Source: a phage. Taken from it: 64,000 bases of DNA. A program made the position numbers and the translations under genes. Position 1 is the stretch's first letter; the number at the start of each line of letters is the position of its first letter. The stretch is from sequence record NC_100372.1; one strand, written 5' to 3'. This document shows, in pieces, positions 28,042 to 60,296 of this stretch. A model generated the notes under the pieces. The model was not told the origin of the DNA. It ran no database searches and saw nothing but the letters and a program-made list of their open reading frames with translations.

Positions 28042-28178
28042 GGTGCTACAATGGGCACGATTAAGAAATTAATCCCAAATGTAGAGATTGCATGCTTTGA
28101 AATTATGTTTGCAATCGCAGTTGTAGTTAATGTGTTAGGTTACGGCTATTAATATCAAATAATTGAGGAGACCTCTAA

Positions 28179-28448
28179 ATGAAAATTAAATTATTCCAAA
28201 CTGAGCTGGCAGACAAAAACTGTGGACTGGTTGAAGGCATGATCGTTGAAGCACAACCAGTTGACTACATGAAGGTGGTTCGTGATGCCCTGGGTGAAGG
28301 TTTTGATCTGATGGAGCCAGCTCTGCGAGAAGATGTCATCGAAATGGCTAAAAAGCACACACCGGAAGGTTTGGTAGTGTTTGTTGCTCCAGGTAATGGA
28401 GAGGAGTTGATTGTAACTCCGGATGTGTATGAGGTTGTAGAAGAGTAA
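28179..28448 (+). CDS. Small acidic paralog-family protein
   Basis: MKIKLF N-terminus, C-terminal YEVVEE. Confidence 0.55.
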   Translation: MKIKLFQTELADKNCGLVEGMIVEAQPVDYMKVVRDALGEGFDLMEPALREDVIEMAKKHTPEGLVVFVAPGNGEELIVTPDVYEVVEE

Positions 28449-39883: not shown

Positions 39884-39974
39884 GATCATTACTCCTTTTT
39901 GCACTGATTATTTTAACAGGGTTTAAATTTACTTTATTGATGGCCCTGGAGTCAAGGCCATCTAAAAATAAATT

Positions 39975-40175
39975 TTACAGGCCTACAATCTCTTTAATTC
40001 GTTTTACTGCTGCCTCAGCGCCTTGAGGGTAAAAATTATGGTAACCAATCACGCGGGTAATACTGATCGCCACTTGATGATCTTCATAATCGCCTTTGAA
40101 GATTTCTTGACCGTCAATCAGCACGGCAATTTTTTCTTCTTTTTTGAAGTTAATAACGCGGATATTGTTGCTCAT
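39975..40175 (-). CDS. Hypothetical protein
   Basis: Start at MSNNIRV after AAAGGAGAAACAAA RBS. Confidence 0.45.
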   Translation of the reverse strand: MSNNIRVINFKKEEKIAVLIDGQEIFKGDYEDHQVAISITRVIGYHNFYPQGAEAAVKRIKEIVGL

Positions 40176-42189: not shown

Positions 42190-42263
42190 GATATTTTCTC
42201 CTGTTTTCTTTATTAGTGGCGGGAAGTTTTCCCGCCTGTGTGTTTAATTATACTTATTGAGAT

Positions 42264-43306: not shown

Positions 43307-43381
43307 GTTACTTTCTCCTTTCATGGTGTTAATAAATTATCTTTATAGATGGCCCTGCAGCCAGGACCACCGAAAAAATAA

Positions 43382-43627
43382 CTATTTCACAATGCCCACA
43401 AAACAGATCCCGCCTTCCCCGACGTAGGCAATATCGGTCACTTTGTAGTCGGTTAAGATCTGTTTATTCAGATCATTAATAAAATCGGTCATTGCGTTGG
43501 TGTAGTTGTCTTCCATGTCTAGGGAATAATCCCAGGTGTAAACCTTTTTACGTCCGAAGCCTTTAACAACAACACGGGCACCTTTGGTGTTGGTTGGTGC
43601 ATAGTATTTAGTGATTAGTGCTGCCAT
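43382..43627 (-). CDS. Hypothetical protein
   Basis: ORF. Confidence 0.5.
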   Translation of the reverse strand: MAALITKYYAPTNTKGARVVVKGFGRKKVYTWDYSLDMEDNYTNAMTDFINDLNKQILTDYKVTDIAYVGEGGICFVGIVK

Positions 43628-43716
43628 GGTTTTAACTCCTCTGTATTAGTTCAGTGTTAACAGTGTAAAGTTTACTTTATTGATGGCCCTGGAGTCAAGG
43701 CCATCTAAAAATAAAC

Positions 43717-44121
43717 TTAGTAAGTTTTCAGTACTTTACCGTCCAACCTGTCAAGCTGGATCTCGATAGCTGCAGAAAACCTATTGTACACCACGTCGCC
43801 CATGGAATCCAACCAGTCTATGACGTTATACACCTGCTCTTTGTTCTTGCAGGTCCGGATCCGTTTCATGATGTAAGCCGGATCAATATTGGTACTTTCG
43901 TTGGTGTTCCCCTGTACCTGATTTGCCGTATTAGTTACATCTTTAATGGCCTTTACCACCACCTGGAAGGGCTTTAAGGTGCCTTTTGCGTTCATCTCAC
44001 GCGCTTTTGCGGCGCGGTTGTTATATGTTACACAACGGCGGCAAATGTTCACCAAATGCATGTCAATAATTTTTTCATCGTTTGCCAGTTCGTTCATGAT
44101 GCGGCGTACGTTCTTATTCAT
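43717..44121 (-). CDS. Hypothetical protein
   Basis: ORF. Confidence 0.5.
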   Translation of the reverse strand: MNKNVRRIMNELANDEKIIDMHLVNICRRCVTYNNRAAKAREMNAKGTLKPFQVVVKAIKDVTNTANQVQGNTNESTNIDPAYIMKRIRTCKNKEQVYNVIDWLDSMGDVVYNRFSAAIEIQLDRLDGKVLKTY

Positions 44122-44140: not shown

Positions 44141-44165
44141 GGCGGGAAACATTCCCGCCTTTTGT
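44141..44165 (+). other. Hairpin GGCGGGAA-ACAT-TTCCCGCC with T-run on the plus strand only
   Basis: Sits in the 5-prime leader of a minus-strand gene; near-identical hairpin at about 42203-42222. Confidence 0.4.
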
Positions 44166-45533: not shown

Positions 45534-45663
45534 CAAAATTCTAAATGAGAACTTTTCGCATTTCATAAATTTAGTTAGCATGCTAATTACCTACCGTGAC
45601 AATTCTATATAAAATAATACCTCCTTAAATATTTCCATATACAAATTTTAAAAATCCATTTCC

Positions 45664-45830
45664 GAAAACGAAAAATCGATTTCGTCCCCAAAAATTTCAG
45701 GTCGAGCTCCGGAACGATTTCCAGAAAATCTGATTCAGAAAACGAAAAACAGATCGAGTACTAAGAAATTTATCGAGAAAAATTTTCAGAAAATTCAATC
45801 TTTGAAACGAAAAACAGATCGAGTACTGAG
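45664..45830. repeat. Three degenerate tandem repeats (about 70 bp) with core GAAAACGAAAAACAGATCGAGTACT
   Basis: Cores at about 45664, 45738, 45804. Confidence 0.55.
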
Positions 45831-46138
45831 AGAGATGTATCAAAACCTGCTGAGAATAATGGGTTTATTGTTATAAAGGGTCAAAGGTAAGCTGGGAAAG
45901 TTCCGGTAGAAGGGTGAGAGTATGTGCGGAAAATCTGGAATAGTAACTTAAAGTACGGTGCGAACGATAGAATGAGCAGCACATCTTATCGCGCCTGTCT
46001 TGAAAAATCCATTTTAGTTTTCGATCCATTTTCTGATTTTCTAAGAATTTTAAAATATCCGGCTAGGTAAAATATCAAAAGGAGGAAATCCATTTTAGAA
46101 ATCCTCCTTATACTTGATGTGCCAGGGATTTTCAAGTA

Positions 46139-49170: not shown

Positions 49171-49202
49171 TTATAATTGCACACCTTACAACCCGTGTCA
49201 AC
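49171..49202 (-). promoter_or_regulatory. Sigma70-like promoter on minus strand (TTGACA-17-AATTAT)
   Basis: Perfect -35, 4/6 -10. Confidence 0.35.
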
Positions 49203-49614
49203 AGAAAACTTCAACAAATTCTTCCACAGTTTTAATGTCATGGGAAAAAGGTTTGCGGCTATAACGGGCAATAGCACTGTCAACCACCGCCCGGTACTCC
49301 AAATCTTCAGAATATTTCATGAAGCATTGCAACGTCTCTGGACAGATAGCCAGATAGCTCCACCACCCCTCTTCAGATTGGTAGTCAAATCCCATACTCT
49401 CTAGCCACGAAGCGTATACACCTGCACCTTCCAGCCAGTGAGTATTTTCATCAAGAAACTTGTTCACAGTCATGTGAGCTTCTAAGCATTTATCCAGCTC
49501 TTTTCCGTTAACCAGCCACGCACTGACAGTGGCGCATCCAAGATCCACAGATTGAGCTGATAGATTGTATTGGTCATAGTTCTCAGGTTTAACAATGATA
49601 TCTTCTAATGTCAT
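49198..49614 (-). CDS. Hypothetical protein
   Basis: ORF. Confidence 0.5.
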   Translation of the reverse strand: MTLEDIIVKPENYDQYNLSAQSVDLGCATVSAWLVNGKELDKCLEAHMTVNKFLDENTHWLEGAGVYASWLESMGFDYQSEEGWWSYLAICPETLQCFMKYSEDLEYRAVVDSAIARYSRKPFSHDIKTVEEFVEVFC

Positions 49615-49631: not shown

Positions 49632-49660
49632 ACAAAAATGCCCCACCCTTTCGGGTAGGG
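49632..49660 (-). terminator. Intrinsic terminator with GAAA tetraloop (GCCCUACCC-GAAA-GGGUGGGGC + U-run)
   Basis: 9-bp stem with one G-U pair, followed on the minus strand by ATTTTT; downstream of the SSB-like gene. Confidence 0.65.
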
Positions 49661-49676
49661 CTATGTTAACTAGATG

Positions 49677-50903
49677 TTAAAAAGGTATGTCATCATCAAA
49701 GGCGTACTGTGCCGGATTCTGATCCATCGGGTCGTCTTCCGCATCATCTACAGGAGGAGCGTCTACAGTGTTTTGCTGTGGGGCGGCTTCCTGTTTGGCA
49801 GCTTGAGGCTCTTGATGGTCAGTGGCTCCAGCACCGTTCTTGATCCAATCATACAACGGTTCAGCAAGATTAGTCAAGACATCTTTTGCCTCTGCAGTAA
49901 TTGCTACTGCAAAATCATCAACTTTCGTTTTCTTGTCAATACGGCGACAAGCGTTCAATACCGCATTACCAACACTGGCACCTACTTCATCTTCAGTTCG
50001 GTTAGTGGCTTGAGCGTACTCTTTCTTAAGCTCGATGGTGACCACGTGCAGTGTTTTAGCCACATCTAAAGGGCTGTCAATCTTAAACCCGCGATCCAGG
50101 ATGATCTGCAATGCATTGATACTGTGCCCTGTCTCTACACCGATGGGGTCGTAAGAGGATTTACGCTTACCACCAGAACCTTGTGTACCGTTCTCTGCTT
50201 TAGGCGGGTAGGCCTTGAAGCCGCTGATAATATTCCCGGTGTCTTTGTCAACAATAGCTGCAACACGACCACCTACCACCAGGTCTTTAAGCTGCTCATC
50301 AGAGACAACCATAGCACCTTCACCAATCTTGTGATCATTGACAGTAACCACGTTGCCAACAATCTGAGTCACATCGCCATAGATGCGTAAAACGTCCTGA
50401 TTGGCATTCTGCTGAGGTTTCTGCTTCTGGCCTTGTGATTGTGCACCTTGTTGCTGTTTTTGCTGCTGAGTCGCTGCTGGAGCCTCTCCTGCACCCAGCT
50501 TGACCATCTTAGCCAGGGAGCCTTTGTAATAGGTCTTACCGTTATGCTCGTTTGCCTTCAAAGGGATATTTACGATCCATCCTGGCGTTACAGTTTCCCA
50601 CTTGTCATCAATTTTAACAGAGACAGAGTCTTGATGACCCGGTTTAAGCAGCTTATCACCCATACTGATCCAAACTTCTTCACCACCTTGAAGCAGGTTA
50701 TCAGAGGAATCCAGTTCAGAAATCAGTAAAGAGATGGTGTGGCTGGATTCAATTTTCTTACCTTGCCACACAGTGGTTTTAATACCTGTTGTAGGATCAG
50801 CACCTTTGATAGGCTTGATGCTGACACGTTTAATCATGCCGTGAGCCAGTAAAACAGTTTCACGCGGATTCATCGGGTTAGCGAATTGTTGAATAACGCT
50901 CAT
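49677..50903 (-). CDS. Single-stranded DNA-binding protein-like (long form)
   Basis: C-terminal acidic tail ending DDDIPF, as in bacterial SSB; Gln/Gly-rich linker. Confidence 0.55.
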   Translation of the reverse strand: MSVIQQFANPMNPRETVLLAHGMIKRVSIKPIKGADPTTGIKTTVWQGKKIESSHTISLLISELDSSDNLLQGGEEVWISMGDKLLKPGHQDSVSVKIDDKWETVTPGWIVNIPLKANEHNGKTYYKGSLAKMVKLGAGEAPAATQQQKQQQGAQSQGQKQKPQQNANQDVLRIYGDVTQIVGNVVTVNDHKIGEGAMVVSDEQLKDLVVGGRVAAIVDKDTGNIISGFKAYPPKAENGTQGSGGKRKSSYDPIGVETGHSINALQIILDRGFKIDSPLDVAKTLHVVTIELKKEYAQATNRTEDEVGASVGNAVLNACRRIDKKTKVDDFAVAITAEAKDVLTNLAEPLYDWIKNGAGATDHQEPQAAKQEAAPQQNTVDAPPVDDAEDDPMDQNPAQYAFDDDIPF

Positions 50904-51379
50904 TATTTATCTCCTTGTTCTTCGTTAGTGTTTGCCGTGTGTGCAAACCCTGCTTGAATTAATTTGTCCTGAACTTGAGCCAACAGGCCCATTGCAAAAC
51001 TTGTGGTCCCAGAGAGGGCCATCAGCATATCTCGTTGTTGAGCTACCCAACCTAAGGCATAGTCCAAACGACGATATTTTTCTTCTTCACGCAGAGCCTG
51101 GAATAATTGTTCAGCCTCTGGCTGTTGTGTAAGCTCCTGAAGTCTTCCCATGAAAGAAGAAAGCACTAGCAGAAGAGACACTTGATCTTTACTTAACCCT
51201 AAGAAAAATTCTTGAGGTTGTTCTTGCTCGTTCATCGCAACCGACGCTTGATCGTTCATTTGTTCCATTATGGAATCTCCGATTTTATTTGAACAACATA
51301 GAAGGAGACACCATTTTAGCATCTCCTTCTGCAAATTACAACAGGTATTTGTTAGCCAATTACTTCGAAAGTACCCCAA
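50903..51379 (-). CDS. Hypothetical protein
   Basis: Coupled ORF. Confidence 0.5.
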   Translation of the reverse strand: MGYFRSNWLTNTCCNLQKEMLKWCLLLCCSNKIGDSIMEQMNDQASVAMNEQEQPQEFFLGLSKDQVSLLLVLSSFMGRLQELTQQPEAEQLFQALREEEKYRRLDYALGWVAQQRDMLMALSGTTSFAMGLLAQVQDKLIQAGFAHTANTNEEQGDK

Positions 51380-51597
51380 CTCCCGTTCAGCAGGCAGGTG
51401 ATCGGATCACCATCATCGTCAATTATTTCAAAGTTTTCAACATCCAGAATATGGTCATCGAACACAATGCTCTTATCGCCACCACCAGAAATAACAGCGT
51501 ATTCCTTACCTTGTGTTAGGTTCTGGCAACCTTTGCCGCCGAAACCAACTTCAACACAACGTACTTTCTGTCCTGCGCGAGCAACTACTCCAGCCAT
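51352..51597 (-). CDS. Hypothetical protein
   Basis: ORF. Confidence 0.45.
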   Translation of the reverse strand: MAGVVARAGQKVRCVEVGFGGKGCQNLTQGKEYAVISGGGDKSIVFDDHILDVENFEIIDDDGDPITCLLNGSWGTFEVIG

Positions 51598-51614
51598 CTT
51601 AAGGTCTCCTGATA

Positions 51615-51935
51615 TTAATCGTCAAGTTCAAAATAGATTTTAACAGCTTCATCAAAGATTGGAATCCCGATGTTGTTGATAAGCTGCCAAACTACCATAT
51701 CTTTTCCTGGATCTGGGAGAATGTCAACCTTTCTCCATGCGCTGTATATCCAGTTCGGACCGCCTTCTGCACTAACTGGTAGATTTTCACCAGCTTCTTG
51801 TAAATACTTATACAGCAAAAGGTATTCTGGGTACTCTAGAACACTGTCCTCTGTAGTATATAGCAGTTCACGGTATACTTTCAAGAATCCTGTTGGGTTG
51901 ATGTTTTCAGTCTTCATTTGCTGCTTCTCCTGCAT
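51615..51935 (-). CDS. Hypothetical protein
   Basis: ORF. Confidence 0.5.
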   Translation of the reverse strand: MQEKQQMKTENINPTGFLKVYRELLYTTEDSVLEYPEYLLLYKYLQEAGENLPVSAEGGPNWIYSAWRKVDILPDPGKDMVVWQLINNIGIPIFDEAVKIYFELDD

Positions 51936-52311
51936 TCATCAGATCTGCCATAGCGTCACCAACGAAGAGGACAACCACGTCGTTGACAGCGTCAGCATCA
52001 TCTTTATTGATGTTGCTGAATTTGGGGCACACTGCAATGACCATATAGACCCCGTTGCCCAACTGAACAGTGCGTGTAGTGCACATTAGTGTGGTGCTTG
52101 TGCCTTCTTTAAAGGCAAATCCTTGCAGACGTTCTTCCAGAGAGTCACCTGTGGATTTCAACAAGGCAAGATCGCCCAATGCGTAGGTAGTGTCCTCATA
52201 GGTCAGTCCAGAGGTCAATGTTGCCTTTCCATCAGAAACTATAATAACCCCATCGGCACCGTCAAGCTCAGAGGCTTCAAAGATATTAATATCCCAAATG
52301 TTTTTCATCAC
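51907..52311 (-). CDS. Hypothetical acidic protein
   Basis: ORF. Confidence 0.5.
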   Translation of the reverse strand: MMKNIWDINIFEASELDGADGVIIVSDGKATLTSGLTYEDTTYALGDLALLKSTGDSLEERLQGFAFKEGTSTTLMCTTRTVQLGNGVYMVIAVCPKFSNINKDDADAVNDVVVLFVGDAMADLMNAGEAANED

Positions 52312-52628
52312 GCTTCCTCGTCATCTAATGAGTTGAAGATTTCACCGAAGTATTCTAAGACTTCCAGCTCACGGGTGGTGCAGAAAACACAGTCCCCGTT
52401 GTCATCTTCGATAACGGCCTCTTTACCAAGAACATCCACTTCAAATTCGTCGTTTAACAGAACGGAACCTGTGTAAACTTTATCTGCCGTGCAGTCCCGA
52501 AAAGCAGAGTCCTTCTCCAAGTAGTCTGGCTTAACCTTGGCTTTAATTCGTTGATATTGTTTGGTCATTGCTGTGGTCCCCTTTCGTTTTGATAGGGCCA
52601 TTATATTAGGCCCTATCGCTATTGTCAA
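52308..52628 (-). CDS. Hypothetical Cys-containing protein (paralog of 52632..52886)
   Basis: Shared AFRDCT/AFKDCT and DDNGDCVFCT/DDEGDSVWCT segments. Confidence 0.5.
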   Translation of the reverse strand: MTIAIGPNIMALSKRKGTTAMTKQYQRIKAKVKPDYLEKDSAFRDCTADKVYTGSVLLNDEFEVDVLGKEAVIEDDNGDCVFCTTRELEVLEYFGEIFNSLDDEEA

Positions 52629-52631
52629 GTA

Positions 52632-52886
52632 TTAATGCTCAGGTTTTACAAAAACTACTTCGTTAACAGTGCACCAGACAGAATCTCCTTCATCATCTTT
52701 AAAGGTAAGACACTGGGCTGAGTTTTCCAACTCATCGAGCTCTTCTTGTGATAAATAGGTCCCTTCTTCCAGAAGAGCTTTTACCAGAGGGTTCTCACAA
52801 AACTCTGCTTCATAAACTGTACCGATTGTGCAATCTTTAAAAGCTCGGTCATTTGCAACGCACTCTGGCTTCAAAGTGATTTTCAT
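52632..52886 (-). CDS. Hypothetical Cys-containing protein (paralog of 52308..52628)
   Basis: See paralog. Confidence 0.5.
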   Translation of the reverse strand: MKITLKPECVANDRAFKDCTIGTVYEAEFCENPLVKALLEEGTYLSQEELDELENSAQCLTFKDDEGDSVWCTVNEVVFVKPEH

Positions 52887-52962
52887 TTTAGCAGTCTCCT
52901 CAATTATTTAAAAATCAACTCTCTGTTTGTGTGGAGCATCTTATATCCAATCTTACTTCTTG

Positions 52963-53334
52963 TCAATGACTATTTTCAATCATCCACACAGGGTCGAGGT
53001 AAATTTGTTGGCGTTTTGCCCAATGACAAACTTCATTGTACATCTGAATCTCTTTGTCTGTCAATTCACGAATAGGCTCATCTATACCCTCATTTTTGTG
53101 GTAATCCCAGTCGGCATCGATTTCCCACAACCATGACTTACGATCTTCACGCTTACGCACACAAAAGTCCCCAGGACGGCCTGCCAGTGCATTTAAGAAC
53201 TCGTTCTCCGCTCGCTCCTGAAGAATACTAAGGAGCAAAACGTTGGAGCATGACCGTAAAATATGCTTCAGCTCACAATCATCAATCTCAACTTCAATAC
53301 GTTGCTTGACTGTGTGGGTACCTTTTACTAACAT
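52963..53334 (-). CDS. Hypothetical protein
   Basis: Start at MLVKGTH after AGAGGAGG RBS. Confidence 0.5.
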   Translation of the reverse strand: MLVKGTHTVKQRIEVEIDDCELKHILRSCSNVLLLSILQERAENEFLNALAGRPGDFCVRKREDRKSWLWEIDADWDYHKNEGIDEPIRELTDKEIQMYNEVCHWAKRQQIYLDPVWMIENSH

Positions 53335-53344
53335 TCTACCTCCT

Positions 53345-53539
53345 CTATACAAACTCTGCAAGGGTTGTGTTGTTCACCGCACCACAGTAGATGGAATATC
53401 CCAACCCATTATGGTGCAGAAACCACGGCACACCTTGGTCATCCTTCACGTATACATCTCCATTTTCCGTGAAGGGCCAATACTCTTCCCCAAGGGTAAA
53501 ATACCTACTCATACCTTCAGCCAGATACTTTACTTTCAT
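53345..53539 (-). CDS. Small paralog-family protein (WF/WY motif)
   Basis: DDQGVPWFLHHNGLGYSIY resembles the next two genes. Confidence 0.45.
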   Translation of the reverse strand: MKVKYLAEGMSRYFTLGEEYWPFTENGDVYVKDDQGVPWFLHHNGLGYSIYCGAVNNTTLAEFV

Positions 53540-53763
53540 AGATCCTCTTCAACAACTACAAACTTGGCAAGTAGGGTGGTCCCATAGATATGATACTCAC
53601 CATTTGCCAGATGGGAGATATACCAGGAGATACCGTCCTCGTCTTCGATCATATTGTTCCTGCGATCCTTATCGTAATAAACCTTGTAGACCTTACCTTC
53701 TTCAAAGAATGACAGGTCTGTCATCTTTTCTTCTACAAATGTAGCTTTAACCAAAGTTGTCAT
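53536..53763 (-). CDS. Small paralog-family protein
   Basis: DEDGISWYISHLANGEYHIY. Confidence 0.45.
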   Translation of the reverse strand: MTTLVKATFVEEKMTDLSFFEEGKVYKVYYDKDRRNNMIEDEDGISWYISHLANGEYHIYGTTLLAKFVVVEEDL

Positions 53764-54044
53764 TGATCTGTCTCCTTCTTGTTGAGCCGGAACACTGCAA
53801 TAATAGCATTTCCAAGATGCAGTGTCAAATCATTCCCCAGATACCATAACATTCCACGGTCATCTTTGATGAAAGGATAACAATCCGGTGCTTTCCAGAC
53901 ATTATACACTTTGCCGACCTGAAAGAAATCAGGCCCTGTTGGAATTTTAGTACCGGGCCACACTTGAGACACCTGAACGCACTCTACCTGCATAATGACA
54001 GGGATAGTCATAGAAGTAAATGTTTTTGTTGGTTCTACTACCAT
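53760..54044 (-). CDS. Small paralog-family protein
   Basis: DDRGMLWYLGNDLTLHLG; start at MVVEPT after AGAGGAGAC RBS. Confidence 0.45.
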   Translation of the reverse strand: MVVEPTKTFTSMTIPVIMQVECVQVSQVWPGTKIPTGPDFFQVGKVYNVWKAPDCYPFIKDDRGMLWYLGNDLTLHLGNAIIAVFRLNKKETDQ

Positions 54045-54093
54045 AAAAGTCTCCTCTCTGTCTAACAACACTTCCGTGTGTTGATAGTTTACA

Positions 54094-56871
54094 TTAGTGA
54101 CAATCGCCCCAGTTACGACCGCACAAGTATTCACCTGTGATCTGGAACGGAACGCCCATCATTTTAGAAGCCTGCCAGAAGCAATGCACCACCATTTCGC
54201 CCACAGGGCTCCAGATAAGTTCAAGCTTTCCGTCATCGTTCAAGATAGGATCGTATACCGTATTTCCGTCCTTGTCAACCACTTCGTTTCCGTCCTCATT
54301 TTTGCGTGCCTTTTTGTACTTATGACCGTCGAACACATGAAGTTTAGCCTCTTGTTGGGCTTTAAATGTTTCCAGCTCTTCAATTGTGTCGAAGGTGTAT
54401 ACAGTTTTATACTTAGGGGTGTCAGGCACTTGAAGCTGATATTCGTCATGGTAATAAATAATACGACGAACACCTTCATCATACCATCCACGCTTCACCA
54501 TTTGGTGGTGCATGAGGATTCCGACCAAGTCGCACAACGATGCACCGCCATTTTGCTGATATGCATTAAGCAAAGAGTGTTTAGAGCGGGTCCAAATGGC
54601 ATGCCCGTCAAAAGAGTAGATAAATTTCTTACCTGTTGCTTCCCAGAATTTCTCCAGATCCTCTTTGCGCCCCTTAAGACCTGGGTTGGCATCCCAGAGA
54701 GCATCAATTACTCTCTGCCCCAGTTCTGGAGAGATATCCAGCATATCTGCAACTTTATCTTTTTGTGCCCCATACATAACCCCATACGTGATAGGTTTAC
54801 CATCGTTACGAGACACCTCTCTACCTGCTACTTTTGTATATGCCTCAGCATTGTTTTGGTGCGCGTCCCCGTTACTTACAACATCATAATACAGACCGTT
54901 GTCAAACTCAAAGGCACCCCAGGCCCCGATGAGCTGCTCTAAGTTGGACCCGTCAATACCGATCTCAAAGTATCCAGGAGGAACACCCCACAGACTACGC
55001 ATCTCTTTACCCATAACCACTTTAGGAGATGGTTTAGGCATGTTTGCACAAATACTATGTTTCTGTCTGGAAGTGTTTGTTAATCCAGAACTTTTAGCAG
55101 GAAGCTTGTGGTCAATCTTCAAACGTGGATGATTAAGAAGACCAGTATCTACCTTATCTTCCTTGATTGGATCAAGGACCGATCTGCGGTTTCGCAATGA
55201 TAACCACAAAACGATATCTTTAGCCATCTCTCCGTTCAATTTTTCAAGATTCGGGCACAGGTGTCCAAACGTATCTTTCAGTTGCGGAGAAGTAATAAGC
55301 GCTCTGGCTTTTCTACGTATCTTCCCAAACACTTCCTTTTTAATCCTTTCTGAGTTAGGGAAGCTTCGGAACTTGTGCACGGTTGTCTGGAACTTAGCAT
55401 CGGTTTTGTTCCAGAAGTTGATAATCAGGTCACAATACTCTGACTCTAAAAGCTCGTCCATATATGCATATACTCGTGCATCAACATCTGCATCAGGTAG
55501 AGCTTTCTTCTTGCTGTCTTTAGTTACATCCTTAGTTCTCCACATTGTCGGAAGCCAACCAGCACTGATCAGGTATCGCTTAATGTCGTCCTGGTTGCTG
55601 ATTTTCATAGGTATCTTGCAGTCCGGCATTCGCTTCTGCTGTAGATCACTTATTGCCTGATCCATTAGCTCTTTAGGTAAAGGTTGTGGTGTGGAGGTGC
55701 CCTTAATATAGCCTCTCAAGAAATCAGCCATCTTATCGGGGTCTTTGCAGCCCATCTCTTCACACCATTTTATCCCCATCTTGCTGACATCTCCTGTGGA
55801 GGTAAATGCTCGCTTAGGCGGGGCTTTGAACTCTAAAGCGCTCATGTCCACAGGATAGCCAAGCTTATCTTTTAACCATTTCCAACCATTATTGGAGATT
55901 GTCCCATCTTGGTTAAACGGCTTTTCAGGGAACTTGGGCCGCTGAGACATTGACAACTCTTTTAAAGGAAGTTGAGGTTCAACACGATCAGCGATCTCTT
56001 TCATCCACGCATCGCAACGGTCCCGTAAAGCAATAGCCCCATCTATGTCGAAATACACCCCCTGTCGAGCCTGCAGCTCCATCAGAAAGTGCTGTAACAT
56101 GCCTCGGCGTAATGCGTTCTTCCAGGTGATTTTCTTGAAGCCTTTCGGCTTCTCTTTGGCAGGATCGTACATAAAGTTCTGCATGTCAGATTTGCCGTAG
56201 AATACACCTTTTGATTCCGCTACCAACTCCTTCCAGAGCAACTCCTGGATGATAACGTCCTCGAACACACGATCCACATACTTCCACAGAGGAAGCTCAC
56301 GCCAGTCATCGATTTGAACTTTCTGGTTACCAAGGGCATAGCCCCATGCCATAAGGCCATGAGGTCCAACAGGTTGCATTTTCTTGGTAACTGGATTAAA
56401 TACTGCGTCCGGACAACCTTTTGGCAAAGGGCGGTCAGGCCACAAGATTCGACTCATTGCTAACGTATCGAACAGATTAACCTGGTGGTCGTTGATAGTC
56501 CCCATGCATTTAGGATCACGGAACATATCAAAATGAATACCGGATAATCTCTCCATCAGCATAAAGTCGTAGCTGTAGCAGTTATGACAGTTCAAAGCTG
56601 TAGGTGACCAGTCTGAGTTGCCTGTAAGCCAGCCTTCCAACTCTGAAAAATCTGCTATGCGAGCCTCAAAATCTGTATAAAGGGTCTTCTTTGCCAGAAT
56701 GAAGTTCTTAGCTTTCTCCACATCCTCTTCAGAGTAGTGTGTGCGGTCATTTAGAGGAAGGAACAGCATAAAACGGTTCTTATTCAGCTCTTTAAACAAA
56801 CCGCAGTGATAATAAAGATCTGGGTCTTCCAGCAGGCCAGAGGCCTCAAAATCGAACGACCACATGCTCAT
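54094..56871 (-). CDS. Family A DNA polymerase with N-terminal 3-prime to 5-prime exonuclease domain
   Basis: Exo I FDFEASG; motif B KPITYGVMYGAQ; motif C YYHDEYQLQV. Confidence 0.85.
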   Translation of the reverse strand: MSMWSFDFEASGLLEDPDLYYHCGLFKELNKNRFMLFLPLNDRTHYSEEDVEKAKNFILAKKTLYTDFEARIADFSELEGWLTGNSDWSPTALNCHNCYSYDFMLMERLSGIHFDMFRDPKCMGTINDHQVNLFDTLAMSRILWPDRPLPKGCPDAVFNPVTKKMQPVGPHGLMAWGYALGNQKVQIDDWRELPLWKYVDRVFEDVIIQELLWKELVAESKGVFYGKSDMQNFMYDPAKEKPKGFKKITWKNALRRGMLQHFLMELQARQGVYFDIDGAIALRDRCDAWMKEIADRVEPQLPLKELSMSQRPKFPEKPFNQDGTISNNGWKWLKDKLGYPVDMSALEFKAPPKRAFTSTGDVSKMGIKWCEEMGCKDPDKMADFLRGYIKGTSTPQPLPKELMDQAISDLQQKRMPDCKIPMKISNQDDIKRYLISAGWLPTMWRTKDVTKDSKKKALPDADVDARVYAYMDELLESEYCDLIINFWNKTDAKFQTTVHKFRSFPNSERIKKEVFGKIRRKARALITSPQLKDTFGHLCPNLEKLNGEMAKDIVLWLSLRNRRSVLDPIKEDKVDTGLLNHPRLKIDHKLPAKSSGLTNTSRQKHSICANMPKPSPKVVMGKEMRSLWGVPPGYFEIGIDGSNLEQLIGAWGAFEFDNGLYYDVVSNGDAHQNNAEAYTKVAGREVSRNDGKPITYGVMYGAQKDKVADMLDISPELGQRVIDALWDANPGLKGRKEDLEKFWEATGKKFIYSFDGHAIWTRSKHSLLNAYQQNGGASLCDLVGILMHHQMVKRGWYDEGVRRIIYYHDEYQLQVPDTPKYKTVYTFDTIEELETFKAQQEAKLHVFDGHKYKKARKNEDGNEVVDKDGNTVYDPILNDDGKLELIWSPVGEMVVHCFWQASKMMGVPFQITGEYLCGRNWGDCH

Positions 56872-56929
56872 ATACAGTTCTCCTTAAAGGGGAGGCGGTT
56901 GTACTACCCCTCCCACTCTTGGTTAAACA

Positions 56930-59008
56930 TTAAAAAGGTGTTTCGTCGTCTTCAAAACCAGGAACGTGGTTAGAGGACGGATCATCATACTGAAGATCTT
57001 CCTGTGTGTCAACAGGGTTAACAGCAGGGGTTATAACCTTATCAGCCACAACCTTGCCCACAGGTGTTTCTACAACTGCATGCTCCTGATCCTCAAACAT
57101 AGCCTGAGGTCTCCAAACAACCTCCCCACCTTCCCCATCTGTAAACATCTGCATTTCTTTGTCCCAGTACCAGTTGCTGGCATCATGGAACTTGCCTGTG
57201 TGGGGATCCATAACTAGAGTGTCTGCAATACCTAAGGTTTTTGCTGGGCGGTTTTTAAGACCTACCAGTCGGACACGTCCACGGGAACGATCCACCATCT
57301 CCTCTGCCTCTACCCCGACAACCACCCAGCTAAGTTGCTCCAATCCGGCACTACCGCGAAGGTTCTCTTTTCGTACAGGGTACCAGAAAGGTAACGGATT
57401 TCCATCCTTATCCTTCGGAGGTACAATCTCTGTGCGCTTCAGGTGAGCAATCACCAAGATAAACACATTAAACTGCTTACAGAACGCGGCTAGTTGAGTC
57501 ATAGCCATGTCAAGTTCTTTGCGCTCATCCTTAACATTAAGCCCTGAAATCACCATAGACAAGTGATCCAGCACAATGTAACGGCAGTGATACAGGCACA
57601 CCATTTGTTTAAGCTTAGTGATCAGCTCATCTACAGGAATGGAGCCGAAATGCTTGAACACTTTGATTTTTCCGGCCTTGGCCCAAGATTGATGAATCTC
57701 AGCGTGCTCCTGATCGGTCAGGAACTGACTGGGGTCTTCAACAAACTCTTTAACATCAAACCCCAGCTGGTTAGCGTACAGAGAGTTGATTGCTTCCTCA
57801 GGATCCTCTTCAAGGTGAATCAGGCACAGGCGATCATCCTCTTCATAATCATCAGCTTTAGGGCATGTTGGATCCATCAAGTATCTTGCAATGCAATGTT
57901 CCAGCTTCTTGGCTACAGTTGTTTTACCACCGCCAGACGGGCCTGTCAGCATCATCAAGGTGCCTTTGTGGAGTCCTTTCAGCATCTTCTGCAGTTTAGG
58001 GAACTCTGCACTAATATCCACGCCATTGGAAGTCTTCTTACGAAGAGATTCAATGGAGAAGTCTTCTAAATCAGATACAGCATCAGGCACATATTTGACT
58101 GGGTGACGGAACATGTTGACAATATCTTCCAGCTTTTTAGCCTTCAGCATGTCACGAATATCTTTTACACCATCAGGGTCGTTTACCTCACCTGGGTATT
58201 CCACGTGGTAAACGTTGTCAGCCATCAAAAATGCTGCGATATTATGCGTAGCTTCAACACCTTTGATAACGTGTTTTTGCTTCTCTACCTCGTTAGCTGC
58301 ATCGTTGTCCATTGCAAGGACTACTGTTCCGTAGCTACGGATAAATTTCTCATTGTTCGCAAAAGTGTCTACGGCGTTTGCACACCCGCAGTTAATTCCG
58401 ACAAAAGGCAGGCATGGTTTTCCTGCCAGATCACCGCCGTTGATAACTGCATCAATCCCATCCTGGACTTCTTTAGCCCACTGCTTCACCTTCGCCGGGG
58501 CTTTAGCATTGGTGAGAATTCCTTTTACTTGTACCTGATATGCAGCCTGCCACGCTGCAATAACATCTCCTTCCCCCTCACAAACGTTAATCTGCTTGCG
58601 GTTGTTGGAGGATGCACACAGCTTTTGACCAAACATCTGGGAGTTGGCCTTTACTATGCCGACAACCGAGAAATGGCCCCTTTGCTCTTTAGGGATTGTC
58701 CAGTCACGCTTTTTAAAGCCAGATAGATTACCGTAGCGGTCATAATACGGAAAGTAGGTGGCAGTAACAGTTACGCCATCCTCTTGGGATAGCGATGATC
58801 GTACACCAAAATATTGTGCAGCCATCAGTCCAATATTTTGTTGTGGAACAGGGACAATTTTAGTGTTTTCTAAAACAGTCTCCACAGTTTCAACTTCTTT
58901 TTCATCACGATAGTCTCGTTTCACACTTCCCCCACTTTTATACTTAGTTGCTTTCGGGTTTGGCTCACCGAAACGGTTGTATGCAGATGCCATGAATTTA
59001 CTGCCCAT
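56930..59008 (-). CDS. DNA primase/helicase fusion (TOPRIM primase + DnaB-like helicase, T7 gp4-like)
   Basis: TOPRIM VCEGEGD and VLAMDNDAANE; Walker A TGPSGGGKTT; Walker B VLDHLS; start at ATG after AAGGAGAAG RBS. Confidence 0.8.
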   Translation of the reverse strand: MGSKFMASAYNRFGEPNPKATKYKSGGSVKRDYRDEKEVETVETVLENTKIVPVPQQNIGLMAAQYFGVRSSLSQEDGVTVTATYFPYYDRYGNLSGFKKRDWTIPKEQRGHFSVVGIVKANSQMFGQKLCASSNNRKQINVCEGEGDVIAAWQAAYQVQVKGILTNAKAPAKVKQWAKEVQDGIDAVINGGDLAGKPCLPFVGINCGCANAVDTFANNEKFIRSYGTVVLAMDNDAANEVEKQKHVIKGVEATHNIAAFLMADNVYHVEYPGEVNDPDGVKDIRDMLKAKKLEDIVNMFRHPVKYVPDAVSDLEDFSIESLRKKTSNGVDISAEFPKLQKMLKGLHKGTLMMLTGPSGGGKTTVAKKLEHCIARYLMDPTCPKADDYEEDDRLCLIHLEEDPEEAINSLYANQLGFDVKEFVEDPSQFLTDQEHAEIHQSWAKAGKIKVFKHFGSIPVDELITKLKQMVCLYHCRYIVLDHLSMVISGLNVKDERKELDMAMTQLAAFCKQFNVFILVIAHLKRTEIVPPKDKDGNPLPFWYPVRKENLRGSAGLEQLSWVVVGVEAEEMVDRSRGRVRLVGLKNRPAKTLGIADTLVMDPHTGKFHDASNWYWDKEMQMFTDGEGGEVVWRPQAMFEDQEHAVVETPVGKVVADKVITPAVNPVDTQEDLQYDDPSSNHVPGFEDDETPF

Positions 59009-59792
59009 CAATTCTTCTCCTTACTACAGGCTCGTTTGCTAAGAATACAGCTCTTGCCCAGCCACGTGGTGTAAGGCTTCGAATCATCTTCGTCCTTGCA
59101 CTCTTTCCACCTAGCTTAGCGTGTTGCATGGAATAACCACTAACCACATCAACTATTTGCGGGACAGGTTTTGTGGCGGGGATTATAAATCCATTTCCTA
59201 TCCAACCGCAAGTTATTTTTGGGTAGGCATCACGTGGAGCTATAAATTCAGGAAACCATGGGTTTACATCATCCTCTGGTAAATACCCACCATAATCCGA
59301 AGGATGAAAACGGTAATCAGGTTTTCGCCACAGTGTTGACATAACTCCTACAGGGTTCTCTACATGCCACGGGCAATCGTAAATCTCTCCCAACTCTTCT
59401 GCAACCCGAGCATCTTTCACAGCATTAATTTGGATCAGAGGATCCTTAGCCAGCTTTTTCTTAAAGTGTGCAGCTCCGGATACTGCTAAATGCGTGCACG
59501 GAGGAAATGCAAGAATAAAGTCTGGAGCTGGATACATGCAAAAAGTTTCTTGAGGGAACCATGGATCAATCCAATAATCCACATAGTGAATGTTAGGATG
59601 ATCTGTTATCACCTCTGCATAACTACCGTGGTCAGCACCTTCTGCATTAAAGCACAGGCACAGGTACCCAGCTTTTGCCCAGTCAATAACTGCACCACCA
59701 GACCCGTCAAATAGACTCCACACAACACCTTTGTGGTAGTGTTCTTTGTAGATAAATTTCAATTTGCTGTCTCCTAATGCAAAAAGCCCCAC
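58998..59792 (-). CDS. DNA cytosine-5 methyltransferase-like protein (tentative)
   Basis: SLFDGSGG (motif I-like), AFPPCTHLAVSG (PC motif-like), HVENPVG (ENV-like); only 264 aa, so assignment is tentative. Confidence 0.4.
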   Translation of the reverse strand: MGLFALGDSKLKFIYKEHYHKGVVWSLFDGSGGAVIDWAKAGYLCLCFNAEGADHGSYAEVITDHPNIHYVDYWIDPWFPQETFCMYPAPDFILAFPPCTHLAVSGAAHFKKKLAKDPLIQINAVKDARVAEELGEIYDCPWHVENPVGVMSTLWRKPDYRFHPSDYGGYLPEDDVNPWFPEFIAPRDAYPKITCGWIGNGFIIPATKPVPQIVDVVSGYSMQHAKLGGKSARTKMIRSLTPRGWARAVFLANEPVVRRRIDGQ

Positions 59793-59808
59793 CCTTTCGG
59801 GCAGGGCC
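59781..59808 (-). terminator. Intrinsic terminator with GAAA tetraloop, near-identical to the one at 49632
   Basis: GCCCUGCCC-GAAA-GGGUGGGGC + UUUUU on the minus strand; coordinates may be off by 1. Confidence 0.6.
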
Positions 59809-59813
59809 TAGTG

Positions 59814-60296
59814 TTAAACCCGGATACCTATTGTATACTCGGTGGATACCAATGTCAAATCTAAATTTAAAATTTCTTGCATCTCATAGTATGCATCCAG
59901 AGTGAGATACATTTCCCCATCCTCTTCTACATACTTGTCGAGATGTTTGAGGCACTTTGGATAACTATCAAGGGCAGCTTTTAAGCACTCAAACTCCGTG
60001 CTGTTGATGAATCCTTCCATCTTAGCTACCCGTTCTGGAGTAACAATAGCACTGTAGTGAGATTTAGCTTCCTGAATGCAATGGGTCCAAGCATCAACTT
60101 TCTCTTCAAAAAGCCCGAAGAATTTCTTTTTGGTGAGTTTCAGATTTTTTAAGTGCTTAAGCACTCGGTTGCCGATTACAGCCACATCACGAAACTTAAA
60201 GATAACTTTGTCGATATCCTCGCGGCCTATTTTCACAAAGCAGGCCTTGCACATCTCGGGAGCAGCGTAGCCTACCTTCCACATAAAATCTGACAT
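59814..60296 (-). CDS. Hypothetical protein
   Basis: ORF; start verified as ATG. Confidence 0.5.
   Translation of the reverse strand: MSDFMWKVGYAAPEMCKACFVKIGREDIDKVIFKFRDVAVIGNRVLKHLKNLKLTKKKFFGLFEEKVDAWTHCIQEAKSHYSAIVTPERVAKMEGFINSTEFECLKAALDSYPKCLKHLDKYVEEDGEMYLTLDAYYEMQEILNLDLTLVSTEYTIGIRV

What the first reader, a model, noticed from the sequence alone, without database searches (positions are those of the whole stretch)
49632..59808. Two near-identical GAAA-tetraloop terminators 10 kb apart
The 9-bp stem / GAAA loop / U-run terminators downstream of the SSB-like gene (49632-49660) and downstream of gene 59814..60296 (59781-59808) share about 35 of 40 bases. Such conservation suggests a common regulatory function, for example an antitermination target, rather than independent origin.
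Basis: seen in the sequence. Interest (0 to 1): 0.4.

Follow-up and report, generated by a model that had tools for sequence, protein, structure and literature searches.

The report
Duplicated transcription terminator in rV5-like phage
Two nearly identical copies of one ordinary transcription stop signal bracket the DNA-replication genes of an rV5-like E. coli phage; both were already predicted as terminators in 2013, and their likeness is best explained by duplication, not by a special shared regulator.

Summary
On the minus (coding) strand, 49661..49640 and 59807..59786 are 9-bp-stem/GAAA-loop hairpins (about -20 kcal/mol), each followed by five U. They match at 21 of 22 hairpin bases and 37 of 42 aligned columns. 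The window is a Vequintavirus (rV5/FV3-like coliphage). In relatives the two hairpins are identical (22/22), including the same two G.U wobbles. Complete genomes carry two copies, with one unresolved record showing three. The exact 22-mer was found nowhere else: not in IMG/VR outside this genus, and not in E. coli.

Both are already listed as predicted rho-independent terminators t213 and t232 of rV5 (Kropinski 2013, Table S4), along with promoter P231 just upstream of t232. Similarity beyond the hairpin is limited to a short 5' flank that varies within the genus, the U-run, and an unexceptional ribosome-binding region. All stem substitutions seen at site 1 keep pairing. The two copies change independently.

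Site 2 follows a genus-specific 160-aa ORFan and lies in a roughly 100-nt block (promoter, leader, hairpin, RBS) with no variable column in six genomes. No convincing sigma-70 promoter lies between it and the primase/helicase gene, so it must be read through.

Verdict: paralogous intrinsic terminators, low interest. Regulated antitermination remains untested.

The parts
49640..49661 (-). Site 1 hairpin: GCCCTACCC GAAA GGGTGGGGC (9-bp stem, GAAA tetraloop). Ortholog of rV5 terminator t213.
   Evidence: -20.1 kcal/mol. rV5 Table S4 lists t213. The window carries a private G>A that turns a G.U pair into A-U.
49632..49639 (-). Site 1 tail, A-UUUUU-GU (U-tract).
49662..49676 (-). Site 1 5' flank, CATCTAGTTAACATA. 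The TTAACA-TA part aligns with site 2. It varies in the genus (CTAACA, CTGACA).
59786..59807 (-). Site 2 hairpin: GCCCTGCCC GAAA GGGTGGGGC. Ortholog of rV5 terminator t232. Invariant in every genome inspected.
   Evidence: (-20.3 kcal/mol).
59779..59785 (-). Site 2 tail, UUUUU-GC (U-tract).
59808..59818 (-). Site 2 5' flank, TTTAACACTAG. It includes the TAA stop (59816..59814) of the 160-aa gene.
59830..59858 (-). Sigma-70-type promoter TTGACA-17-TACAAT (rV5 P231). It lies inside the 3' end of the 160-aa gene, about 20 nt upstream of the site 2 hairpin.
   Evidence: 11/12 match. Annotated as P231 in the rV5 record and in Table S4. Invariant in 6 genomes.
59771..59870 (-). Block of about 100 nt with no variable column in 6 genomes: AT-rich stretch, promoter, leader, hairpin, U-run, Shine-Dalgarno.
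   Evidence: Also, the 49-mer is at least 99% identical in 112 records, while the surrounding 1 kb is 90-95% identical in 109 records.
49677..50903 (-). 408-aa gene upstream of site 1, ending ..DDDIPF. Putative SSB; phrog_4477, unknown function.
49198..49614 (-). 138-aa gene of unknown function. Its ATG lies 19 nt after the last U of the site 1 U-run.
59814..60296 (-). 160-aa ORFan upstream of site 2, found only in Vequintavirus.
   Evidence: 115 records, all at least 95% identical, none outside the genus.
58998..59762 (-). DNA methyltransferase gene (TTG start) directly behind site 2. It overlaps the start of the primase/helicase gene (56930..59008).
   Evidence: phrog_757.

Best explanation
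The two elements are paralogous copies of one intrinsic (Rho-independent) transcription terminator. It was duplicated in the ancestor of the genus Vequintavirus and has been kept by selection on the RNA hairpin.

Both copies act on the leftward, host-RNA-polymerase-transcribed early/replication gene string. In the sense-strand RNA, a -20 kcal/mol GNRA-capped hairpin followed by five U should release a fraction of polymerases.

Site 1 marks the end of the conserved replication block, after the SSB-like gene (or after the optional endonuclease VII gene that follows it in rV5-type genomes). Related genera also have a terminator at this position, but with an unrelated sequence.

Site 2 sits at the 3' end of a genus-specific 160-aa ORFan that was inserted in front of the methyltransferase-primase/helicase-polymerase genes. 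It is fused to promoter P231 into one strongly conserved promoter-leader-terminator-RBS unit. Functionally this is an insulator/attenuator that sets how much transcription enters the replication genes.

Both sites must be leaky, because the next genes start about 20 nt behind each U-run (19 nt at site 1, 18 nt at site 2) with their own ribosome-binding sites.

Shown: sequence, fold, copy number, conservation, context. Inferred: termination itself, leakiness, direction and time of the duplication.
For: - Hairpin plus U-tract sit on the coding strand, right after stop codons. Folds are stable and unambiguous.
- Both were predicted as terminators by ARNold/MFOLD in rV5 (t213 and t232, each -22.3 kcal/mol) and are annotated as terminators in the Murica, EdH4 and HdK5 records.
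- In the genus consensus the two hairpins are identical 22/22, with the same two G.U wobbles. This is the top pair among 190 terminator pairs.
- There are two places per complete genome. The exact 22-mer occurs in IMG/VR only in two Vequintavirus contigs, twice each, and is absent from 5,426 E. coli genomes.
- The four stem substitutions seen at site 1 all keep a standard pair, and three of them turn G.U into a Watson-Crick pair (63/63 cells paired). G.U pairs exist only in the sense-strand RNA, so selection acts at the RNA level.
- PVP-SE1 and Iguana have a different, bidirectional terminator after the SSB-like or endonuclease gene.
- Iguana, 4MG and phAPEC8 have the MTase gene with no hairpin in front. 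The 160-aa gene is genus-specific.
Against: - No transcript data exist for any Vequintavirus in the searched literature, so termination and its efficiency are unmeasured.
- A strong promoter placed about 20 nt upstream of a strong terminator (site 2) is an odd design for a plain terminator.
- The roughly 100-nt block without a single variable column in six genomes suggests more constraint than a terminator alone needs.
- Only five U follow each hairpin. At site 1 an A separates stem and U-run, so efficiency may be modest.
- No double compensatory changes were seen.
Confidence: 0.75

Rival explanations
1. Shared regulatory target: a phage- or host-encoded factor recognises the GAAA hairpin (a nut/boxB-like or Q-like system) and switches both terminators off at a set time. 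This would open the replication block (site 2) and the genes behind it (site 1).
For: - An essential primase/helicase gene lies behind site 2 with no convincing sigma-70 promoter in between.
- The order promoter P231, about 20-nt leader, terminator resembles lambda PR'-tR'.
- The whole unit shows no variable column in six genomes, including about 15 codons with no synonymous change.
- The site 2 49-mer is at least 99% identical in 112 records although its flanks are about 93% identical.
- The loop is a GNRA type, as in lambda boxB (from memory).
Against: - Site 1 has no comparable promoter.
- The shared 5' flank is not conserved at site 1 (TTAACA, CTAACA or CTGACA) and matches only the UUUAACA half of the boxA consensus.
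- The hairpin has a 9-bp stem with a true tetraloop and its own U-run, unlike boxB.
- The copies drift independently.
- There is no alternative fold and no Rfam hit.
- No antiterminator homolog was identified, though only 10 neighbouring proteins were scanned.
Confidence: 0.1
2. Independent origin: two terminators converged on the same optimal design (G+C stem, GNRA loop, GGGGC-UUUUUG end), so the likeness is generic.
For: - T4-type phages carry very similar terminators. Examples are GCCCCGACC-GAAA-GGTTGGGGC-TTTTTG after the T4 tRNA region (19/22 with site 2) and a Mosigvirus example.
- rV5 terminators t041 and t052 share the frame GCC(C)T...GGGGC-TTTTTG.
- The ribosome-binding-site similarity downstream is unexceptional; many RBS pairs in the window score higher.
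Against: - The T4-type matches have E-values of 0.08-3 in a 2.3-Gb search, which is chance level.
- Within the genus the pair is 22/22, including inner stem, loop and both wobble positions, plus part of the 5' flank. This is far above the next-best terminator pair.
- Other strong terminators in the window have unrelated stems.
Confidence: 0.05
3. Recombination cassette boundary: the repeat is a PeSL-like linker. Genes are gained, lost or circularised at it by short-homology recombination, and termination is a side function.
For: - Site 2 has the full PeSL layout: AT-rich stretch, sigma-70 promoter, stem-loop, SD, start. This matches the class with the stem-loop downstream of the -10.
- It abuts a genus-specific ORFan.
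- Site 1 abuts a presence/absence polymorphism of an endonuclease VII gene, whose junction keeps TAACATCTAG.
- The window holds other repeated promoter/stem-loop cassettes.
Against: - There are only two copies per genome, 10.1 kb apart, flanking essential genes.
- No genome among about 120 lacks or has rearranged the interval.
- Site 1 has no promoter part.
- Identity is confined to about 40 nt.
Confidence: 0.08
4. DNA-level element: a cruciform, replication origin or packaging signal rather than an RNA signal.
For: - Location next to the replication genes.
- A promoter followed by a G-rich transcript could in principle prime replication, as in T4 or ColE1 R-loop origins (from memory).
Against: - Two G.T wobbles in the consensus become A.C mismatches on the other strand.
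- The Murica C>T change keeps pairing only in the sense RNA.
- The U-run is on the sense strand only.
- Nothing else origin-like (iterons, AT-rich unwinding element) was seen at either site.
Confidence: 0.02

Closest known systems
Predicted terminators t213 and t232 and promoter P231 of phage rV5 (Kropinski et al. 2013, Virol J 10:76, Additional file 4)
   Same: These are the orthologous elements. The rV5 hairpin is the same GCCCTGCCCGAAAGGGTGGGGC at both sites (the window's site 1 differs by one base), in the same positions after genes 213 and 232, with P231 directly upstream of t232.
   Different: The paper lists them without noting that they are identical or that P231 precedes t232. The window (FV3-type) lacks gene 213 (endonuclease VII) and has a private G>A in site 1.
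Canonical E. coli-type intrinsic (Rho-independent) terminators with GNRA or UUCG tetraloops, including those of T4-type phages (for example the terminator after the T4 tRNA/species 1 RNA region, X03016)
   Same: 9-bp G+C-rich stem, tetraloop, GGGGC-UUUUUG end, placed just after a gene. The T4 example matches site 2 at 19/22.
   Different: There is no evidence of homology with the T4 elements (E-values 0.08-3). Here two copies in one genome are identical.
PeSLs (promoter-early stem-loops) of T4-type phages (Arbiol et al. 2010, PMC2839356; Comeau et al. 2014, PMC4122927)
   Same: Site 2 is a composite of an AT-rich stretch, a near-consensus sigma-70 promoter, a stem-loop that can terminate, an SD and a start codon, next to an ORFan. 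Repeated copies occur in one genome.
   Different: PeSLs occur in many copies in hyperplastic regions and are wholly intergenic. Here there are two copies, the promoter lies inside a coding region, site 1 has no promoter, and no mini-circles or shuffling have been shown.
Lambda late control: PR' - qut - tR' (6S RNA) with antiterminator Q, and lambda nut (boxA/boxB) with N
   Same: At site 2 a promoter is followed closely by a terminator in front of a long essential operon. The hairpin has a GNRA-type loop.
   Different: No Q or N homolog was identified and the boxA consensus is not met. The hairpin is itself the terminator, and site 1 lacks the promoter. Knowledge of the lambda system is from memory, not tested here.
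Morons (gene plus own promoter/terminator inserted between conserved phage genes)
   Same: The genus-specific 160-aa gene with a terminator at its 3' end is inserted between conserved genes (ligase-like small gene and MTase).
   Different: No own promoter is evident upstream of the 160-aa gene. The promoter in the unit points to the downstream gene.

Membership tests
Intrinsic (Rho-independent) terminator | Stable G+C-rich stem-loop in the transcript | tested here: met
   -20.1 and -20.3 kcal/mol, z = -5.1 and -3.9. Pair probabilities are about 1.0 in 300-nt context.
Intrinsic (Rho-independent) terminator | U-rich tract immediately 3' of the stem | tested here: met
   Site 2 has UUUUUGC directly after the stem. 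Site 1 has A then UUUUUGU. Both are short (5 U).
Intrinsic (Rho-independent) terminator | Sense-strand location downstream of a coding region | tested here: met
   15 nt after the stop of the 408-aa gene and 6 nt after the stop of the 160-aa gene, on the coding strand.
Intrinsic (Rho-independent) terminator | RNA 3' ends / polymerase release at the U-tract | not testable with these tools
   No Vequintavirus transcript data were found.
PeSL (T4-type promoter-early stem-loop cassette) | Near-consensus sigma-70 promoter joined to the stem-loop in one conserved unit ending at SD/start | tested here: inconclusive
   Met at site 2 (TTGACA-17-TACAAT, AT-rich upstream, invariant unit). Not met at site 1, where the best candidate is only ATGACA-19-TAACAT by eye and the scan reports no promoter within about 190 nt upstream.
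PeSL (T4-type promoter-early stem-loop cassette) | Many dispersed copies flanking variable ORFans in hyperplastic regions | tested here: not met
   Two copies per genome. They flank the conserved replication block, although each abuts one variable or genus-specific gene.
PeSL (T4-type promoter-early stem-loop cassette) | Recombination between copies (mini-circles, module shuffling) | not testable with these tools
   No rearranged genome was seen among about 120 records. Inverse PCR would be needed.
Lambda-type nut site (N antitermination) | boxA element (CGCUCUUA / GCUCUUUAACAA-like) 5' of the hairpin | tested here: not met
   By-eye reading of the sequences. Site 2 has GGGUUUAACAC, which matches only UUUAACA. 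The site 1 flank varies (UUAACA, CUAACA, CUGACA) within the genus. The consensus is quoted from memory.
Lambda-type nut site (N antitermination) | boxB: short (5-bp) stem with GNRA-like pentaloop, not itself a terminator | tested here: not met
   9-bp stem, 4-nt GAAA loop, followed by a U-run.
Lambda-type nut site (N antitermination) | Phage-encoded N-like (arginine-rich) protein | not tested
   Only 10 neighbouring proteins were scanned against Pfam and 7 of the same proteins against PHROGs, with no relevant hit.
Q-type late antitermination unit (promoter - pause/qut - terminator) | Promoter closely followed by a terminator ahead of a long operon | tested here: inconclusive
   The architecture is present at site 2 only. 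By eye (not scanned), no clear -10-like pause element was seen in the about 20-nt leader. No Q homolog was sought genome-wide.
REP/MITE-like dispersed palindromic repeats | Numerous copies per genome, often in both orientations | tested here: not met
   Two copies, same orientation.

The most novel reading that the evidence does not exclude
The roughly 100-nt unit at 59771..59870 (promoter P231, about 20-nt leader, terminator hairpin, RBS), which shows no variable column in six genomes, may not be a passive terminator. It could be a checkpoint for the replication genes. In that reading P231 mostly makes a roughly 45-nt terminated RNA, until a phage factor that recognises the GAAA hairpin (also present at site 1) suppresses termination. 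Alternatively, the short G-rich transcript itself could act as a small RNA or an R-loop primer. The identical hairpin at site 1 would then be a second target of the same factor.
Probability: 0.1. Interest if true: 0.55.

Novelty: already known. Interest (0 to 1): 0.15.

Why it matters
As it stands it matters little. It documents that a coliphage genus carries two copies of one terminator, one at each end of its replication gene block, and that annotation pipelines can treat them as ordinary terminators.

Two modest points of value remain. First, the site 2 promoter-terminator-RBS unit is far more conserved than its surroundings. It gates essential replication genes, so it is a cheap, well-defined place to look for regulated read-through in a phage group with no transcript map. 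Second, together with the other repeated promoter/stem-loop cassettes in the window, it hints that rV5-like phages use PeSL-like regulatory cassettes, which have so far been described for T4-type phages.

Tried and rejected
- Rfam at E<=1 over 44-64 kb: no match.
- Host origin: blastn of the 49-mer against 5,426 E. coli genomes gave only two chance-level hits, E=3.
- Wider distribution: the exact 22-mer occurs in IMG/VR only in two Vequintavirus contigs. The search for related loci with the SSB-like protein returned only those two contigs.
- Homology with T4-type terminators: rejected, E-values 0.08-3, although the design is the same.
- Downstream similarity as part of the repeat: rejected. 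The 34-nt RBS regions score in the top 0.6% of 9,180 pairs, but mainly through the U-run, and many unrelated RBS pairs score higher.
- Alternative or antiterminator folds: none in 300-nt contexts.
- boxA-like reading of the shared TTAACA: rejected, because it is variable at site 1.
- Concerted evolution: not seen. Variants at site 1 are not mirrored at site 2.
- Terminator in front of the MTase gene in other genera: absent in Iguana, 4MG and phAPEC8.
- Pfam on ten neighbouring proteins: only a Macro domain. PHROGs: the MTase, with no named function for the other flanking genes (weak secondary hits to DNA-ligase and MTase families for two upstream small ORFs).
- Transcriptome literature for Vequintavirus: none found.
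- The third 'place' reported for KP869102.1: not located in its first 12 kb. Left unresolved.

Full report
WHAT THE WINDOW IS
Megablast of 47-62 kb finds 128 phage records, 109 of them covering at least 80% of the query at 90-97.5% identity. All are rV5/FV3-like E. coli myoviruses of the genus Vequintavirus, about 137 kb. The 'Campylobacter phage' records among them are classified as Vequintavirus and flagged UNVERIFIED. Genes between 44 and 64 kb run on the minus strand.

THE OBSERVATION
On the minus strand, site 1 reads TTAACATA-GCCCTACCC-GAAA-GGGTGGGGC-A-TTTTT-GT (hairpin 49661..49640). Site 2 reads TTTAACACTAG-GCCCTGCCC-GAAA-GGGTGGGGC-TTTTT-GC (hairpin 59807..59786).
- The hairpins differ at one base. 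A local alignment gives 37 matches in 42 columns around them.
- The 16-mer CCCGAAAGGGTGGGGC occurs exactly twice in the window. Only 0.22 matches are expected by chance even with 3 mismatches allowed.
- Each hairpin folds at about -20 kcal/mol, well below shuffled controls, and forms with probability about 1.0 within 300 nt of context. No competing structure appears.

ALREADY DESCRIBED
The rV5 genome paper (Kropinski et al. 2013, PMC3606486) lists both elements in Additional file 4. These are t213 (121343..121370, GCCCTGCCCGAAAGGGTGGGGCATTTTT) and t232 (132395..132422, GGCCCTGCCCGAAAGGGTGGGGCTTTTT), each -22.3 kcal/mol. The same file lists a sigma-70 promoter P231 (132444..132472) directly upstream of t232. 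The rV5 GenBank record annotates P231. The Murica record annotates site 2 as a terminator, and the EdH4 and HdK5 records annotate site 1. The paper does not remark on the identity of the two terminators.

IS THE LIKENESS MORE THAN GENERIC?
Yes.
- In relatives the two hairpins are identical at 22/22. This includes the loop and the same two G.U wobbles, U5.G18 and G6.U17. The window's G>A at site 1 is private.
- Among rV5's 20 predicted terminators the pair scores 25, against a mean of 7.8 (sd 2.8) and a next-best of 19.
- Other strong terminators in the window have unrelated stems.
There is nonetheless a generic component.
- rV5 terminators t041 and t052 share the frame GCC(C)T...GGGGC-TTTTTG.
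- T4-type phages have look-alikes such as GCCCCGACC-GAAA-GGTTGGGGC-TTTTTG. Those matches have E-values of 0.08-3 in a 2.3-Gb search, so they show a common design rather than homology.
- Downstream of the U-run, the apparent similarity (RBS and start) is not exceptional. It is in the top 0.6% of 9,180 RBS-region pairs, but the score comes largely from the U-run, and unrelated gene starts in the window score up to twice as high.
- Upstream, the shared TTAACA..TAG is short and is not conserved at site 1 within the genus (CTAACA in 12A_SA_NWU, CTGACA in rV5).
The repeated unit is thus about 40 nt: a few flank bases, the hairpin and the U-run.

COPY NUMBER AND DISTRIBUTION
blastn with either ~48-nt site (48 nt for site 1, 49 nt for site 2) finds two places per complete Vequintavirus genome. 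One record shows three; the third place was not located. The exact 22-mer occurs in IMG/VR only in two Vequintavirus contigs, twice each. It is absent from E. coli genomes. Rfam has nothing.

CONSERVATION AND VARIATION
Site 2:
- The 49-mer is at least 99% identical in 112 records, although the surrounding 1 kb is 90-95% identical in 109 records.
- In six genomes aligned here, about 100 consecutive columns show no variation. They run from the AT-rich stretch before the -35 of P231, through the leader, hairpin and U-run, to the Shine-Dalgarno. The flanks vary at about one column in eight.
Site 1 is more variable.
- Four point substitutions occur in the stem: G6>A (window), C9>U (Murica), U17>C (C7) and G18>A (12A_SA_NWU). 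There is also one C insertion (HdK5).
- All four substitutions keep a standard pair, and three convert a G.U into a Watson-Crick pair.
- No double compensatory change is seen, so this is moderate evidence for selection on structure, not proof.
- G.U pairs exist only in the sense-strand RNA, so the selected structure is RNA, not a DNA cruciform.
- Variants at site 1 are not mirrored at site 2, so there is no sign of ongoing gene conversion.

CONTEXT
Site 1:
- It lies 15 nt after the stop of a 408-aa gene with an SSB-type acidic tail (function unassigned). The ATG of a 138-aa gene of unknown function follows 19 nt after the last U of the U-run.
- In rV5-type genomes an endonuclease VII gene sits between the 408-aa gene and the terminator. 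The window lacks it, and both forms share the junction TAACATCTAG.
- In the more distant relatives PVP-SE1 (Seunavirus) and Klebsiella phage Iguana (genus not given in its record), the 408-aa gene (or its neighbouring endonuclease gene) ends the transcription unit. There it is followed by a bidirectional terminator of unrelated sequence.
- A terminator at this position is therefore old, but this particular sequence is genus-specific.
Site 2:
- It lies 6 nt after the stop of a 160-aa ORFan found only in Vequintavirus (115 records). The TTG start of a DNA methyltransferase gene follows 18 nt after the last U of the U-run. That gene overlaps the primase/helicase gene, and the DNA polymerase gene comes next.
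- In Iguana, 4MG and phAPEC8 the methyltransferase gene follows its upstream neighbour closely. No terminator-type hairpin (G+C stem plus U-run) precedes it.
- Site 2 is therefore a genus-specific addition that came with, or after, the ORFan.
- The scan finds no convincing sigma-70 promoter between site 2 and the primase/helicase start. The next strong one is at 57012..56984.

HOW IT MOST LIKELY WORKS
Both elements are intrinsic terminators acting on host RNA polymerase as it transcribes the leftward early/replication genes. They derive from one sequence by duplication in the Vequintavirus ancestor.
- Site 1 ends the conserved replication block.
- Site 2 insulates that block from upstream transcription. 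With P231 it forms an attenuator-like unit.
- Both must be leaky, because the next genes, including an essential one, depend on read-through.
These functional steps are inferred from anatomy. No transcript data for this genus were found.

A common origin is supported. A common special regulator is neither required nor indicated.
- Points against: there is no promoter at site 1, the flank motif is not conserved, no alternative fold exists, and the copies drift independently.
- Points that keep it open: P231 is oddly placed upstream of t232. Elsewhere in rV5 the order is terminator then promoter, for example t052/P051 and t041/P040. The unit is also extremely conserved.
I put about 0.1 on regulated antitermination.

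COMPARISON WITH KNOWN SYSTEMS
- The elements meet the sequence-level criteria of intrinsic terminators.
- Site 2 resembles the PeSL class with the stem-loop downstream of the -10 (Arbiol 2010). The pair fails the PeSL criteria of many dispersed copies and a promoter in each copy.
- Lambda nut criteria (boxA, boxB form) are not met.

VERDICT
This is a real but ordinary feature. It was already catalogued as predicted terminators, and the only new point is that the two are paralogous copies.

Noticed in passing
window 39925-39975, 43334-43384, 43668-43718 (minus strand): Three copies of a 51-nt repeat; two are 96% identical and lie 3.7 kb apart. It comprises an AT-rich stretch, a 9-bp hairpin GATGGCCTT-GACTCC-AGGGCCATC that overlaps a TTGACT -35, then a -10 (TAAATT/TAAACT) after 18 nt, followed by an RBS and ATG. 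This is the layout of T4-type PeSL cassettes, which I have not seen reported for rV5-like phages.
   Followed up: partly
window 42218-42236 with promoter 42274-42247, and 44141-44159 with promoter 44197-44170 (minus strand): A second pair of near-identical hairpins, GGCGGGAA-N3-TTCCCGCC. Each starts 10 nt after the -10 of a strong sigma-70 promoter (rV5 P192, P194) and is followed by an RBS. They look like 5'-terminal mRNA stem-loops. The T-run is on the opposite strand only.
   Followed up: partly
window 49670-49677; L006 11233-11811; L019 1887-2510: Presence/absence polymorphism of an endonuclease VII/HNH-type gene (about 190-207 aa) between the SSB-like gene and terminator t213. It is present in rV5-type genomes and absent in this window. 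Both forms keep TAACATCTAG at the junction, and the 3' end of the SSB-like gene differs between them (DDSIPF vs DDDIPF), as expected near a homing endonuclease.
   Followed up: partly
window 45651-45831: Cluster of imperfect direct repeats of 47-55 nt (AAAATC..GAAAACGAAAAA..CAGATCGAGTACT.AGA) spaced 65-74 nt apart, with a long A/T-rich hairpin at 45695-45658. It may lie in a non-coding stretch, and an iteron-like origin was not examined.
   Followed up: no
window 28154-28187 (+) and 52878-52911 (-): The ribosome-binding regions of two genes on opposite strands are nearly identical (AATAATTGAGGAGAC..CTAAAATGAAAAT). This was the highest score of 9,180 RBS-region pairs. A second such pair lies at gene starts 39007 and 43627, next to the 51-nt repeats.
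   Followed up: no
window 54094-56871 (-); L019 6598-9883; L008 1323-4947; L023 6858-7592: The DNA polymerase is one 925-aa ORF here. In the rV5 record it is annotated as a shorter polymerase plus several small ORFs. In PVP-SE1 it is interrupted by a LAGLIDADG endonuclease gene. O157 typing phage 4 has an AP2-domain gene between the polymerase and helicase genes.
   Followed up: no
rV5 genome 34158-34191 and 48359-48391 (outside the window): rV5 terminators t041 and t052 share the frame GCC(C)T...GGGGC-TTTTTG, with a U.G wobble near the stem base. t052 shares a 16-nt exact run (GGGTGGGGCTTTTTGC) with site 2. This may be a looser terminator family in the genus.
   Followed up: partly
phage records MG0656xx ('Campylobacter phage' C7, A112b, D1 and others): Sixteen records named Campylobacter phage match this E. 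coli Vequintavirus at 90-97% identity. The one inspected (C7) is flagged UNVERIFIED and classified as Vequintavirus, so these are probably mislabelled or contaminant phages.
   Followed up: no
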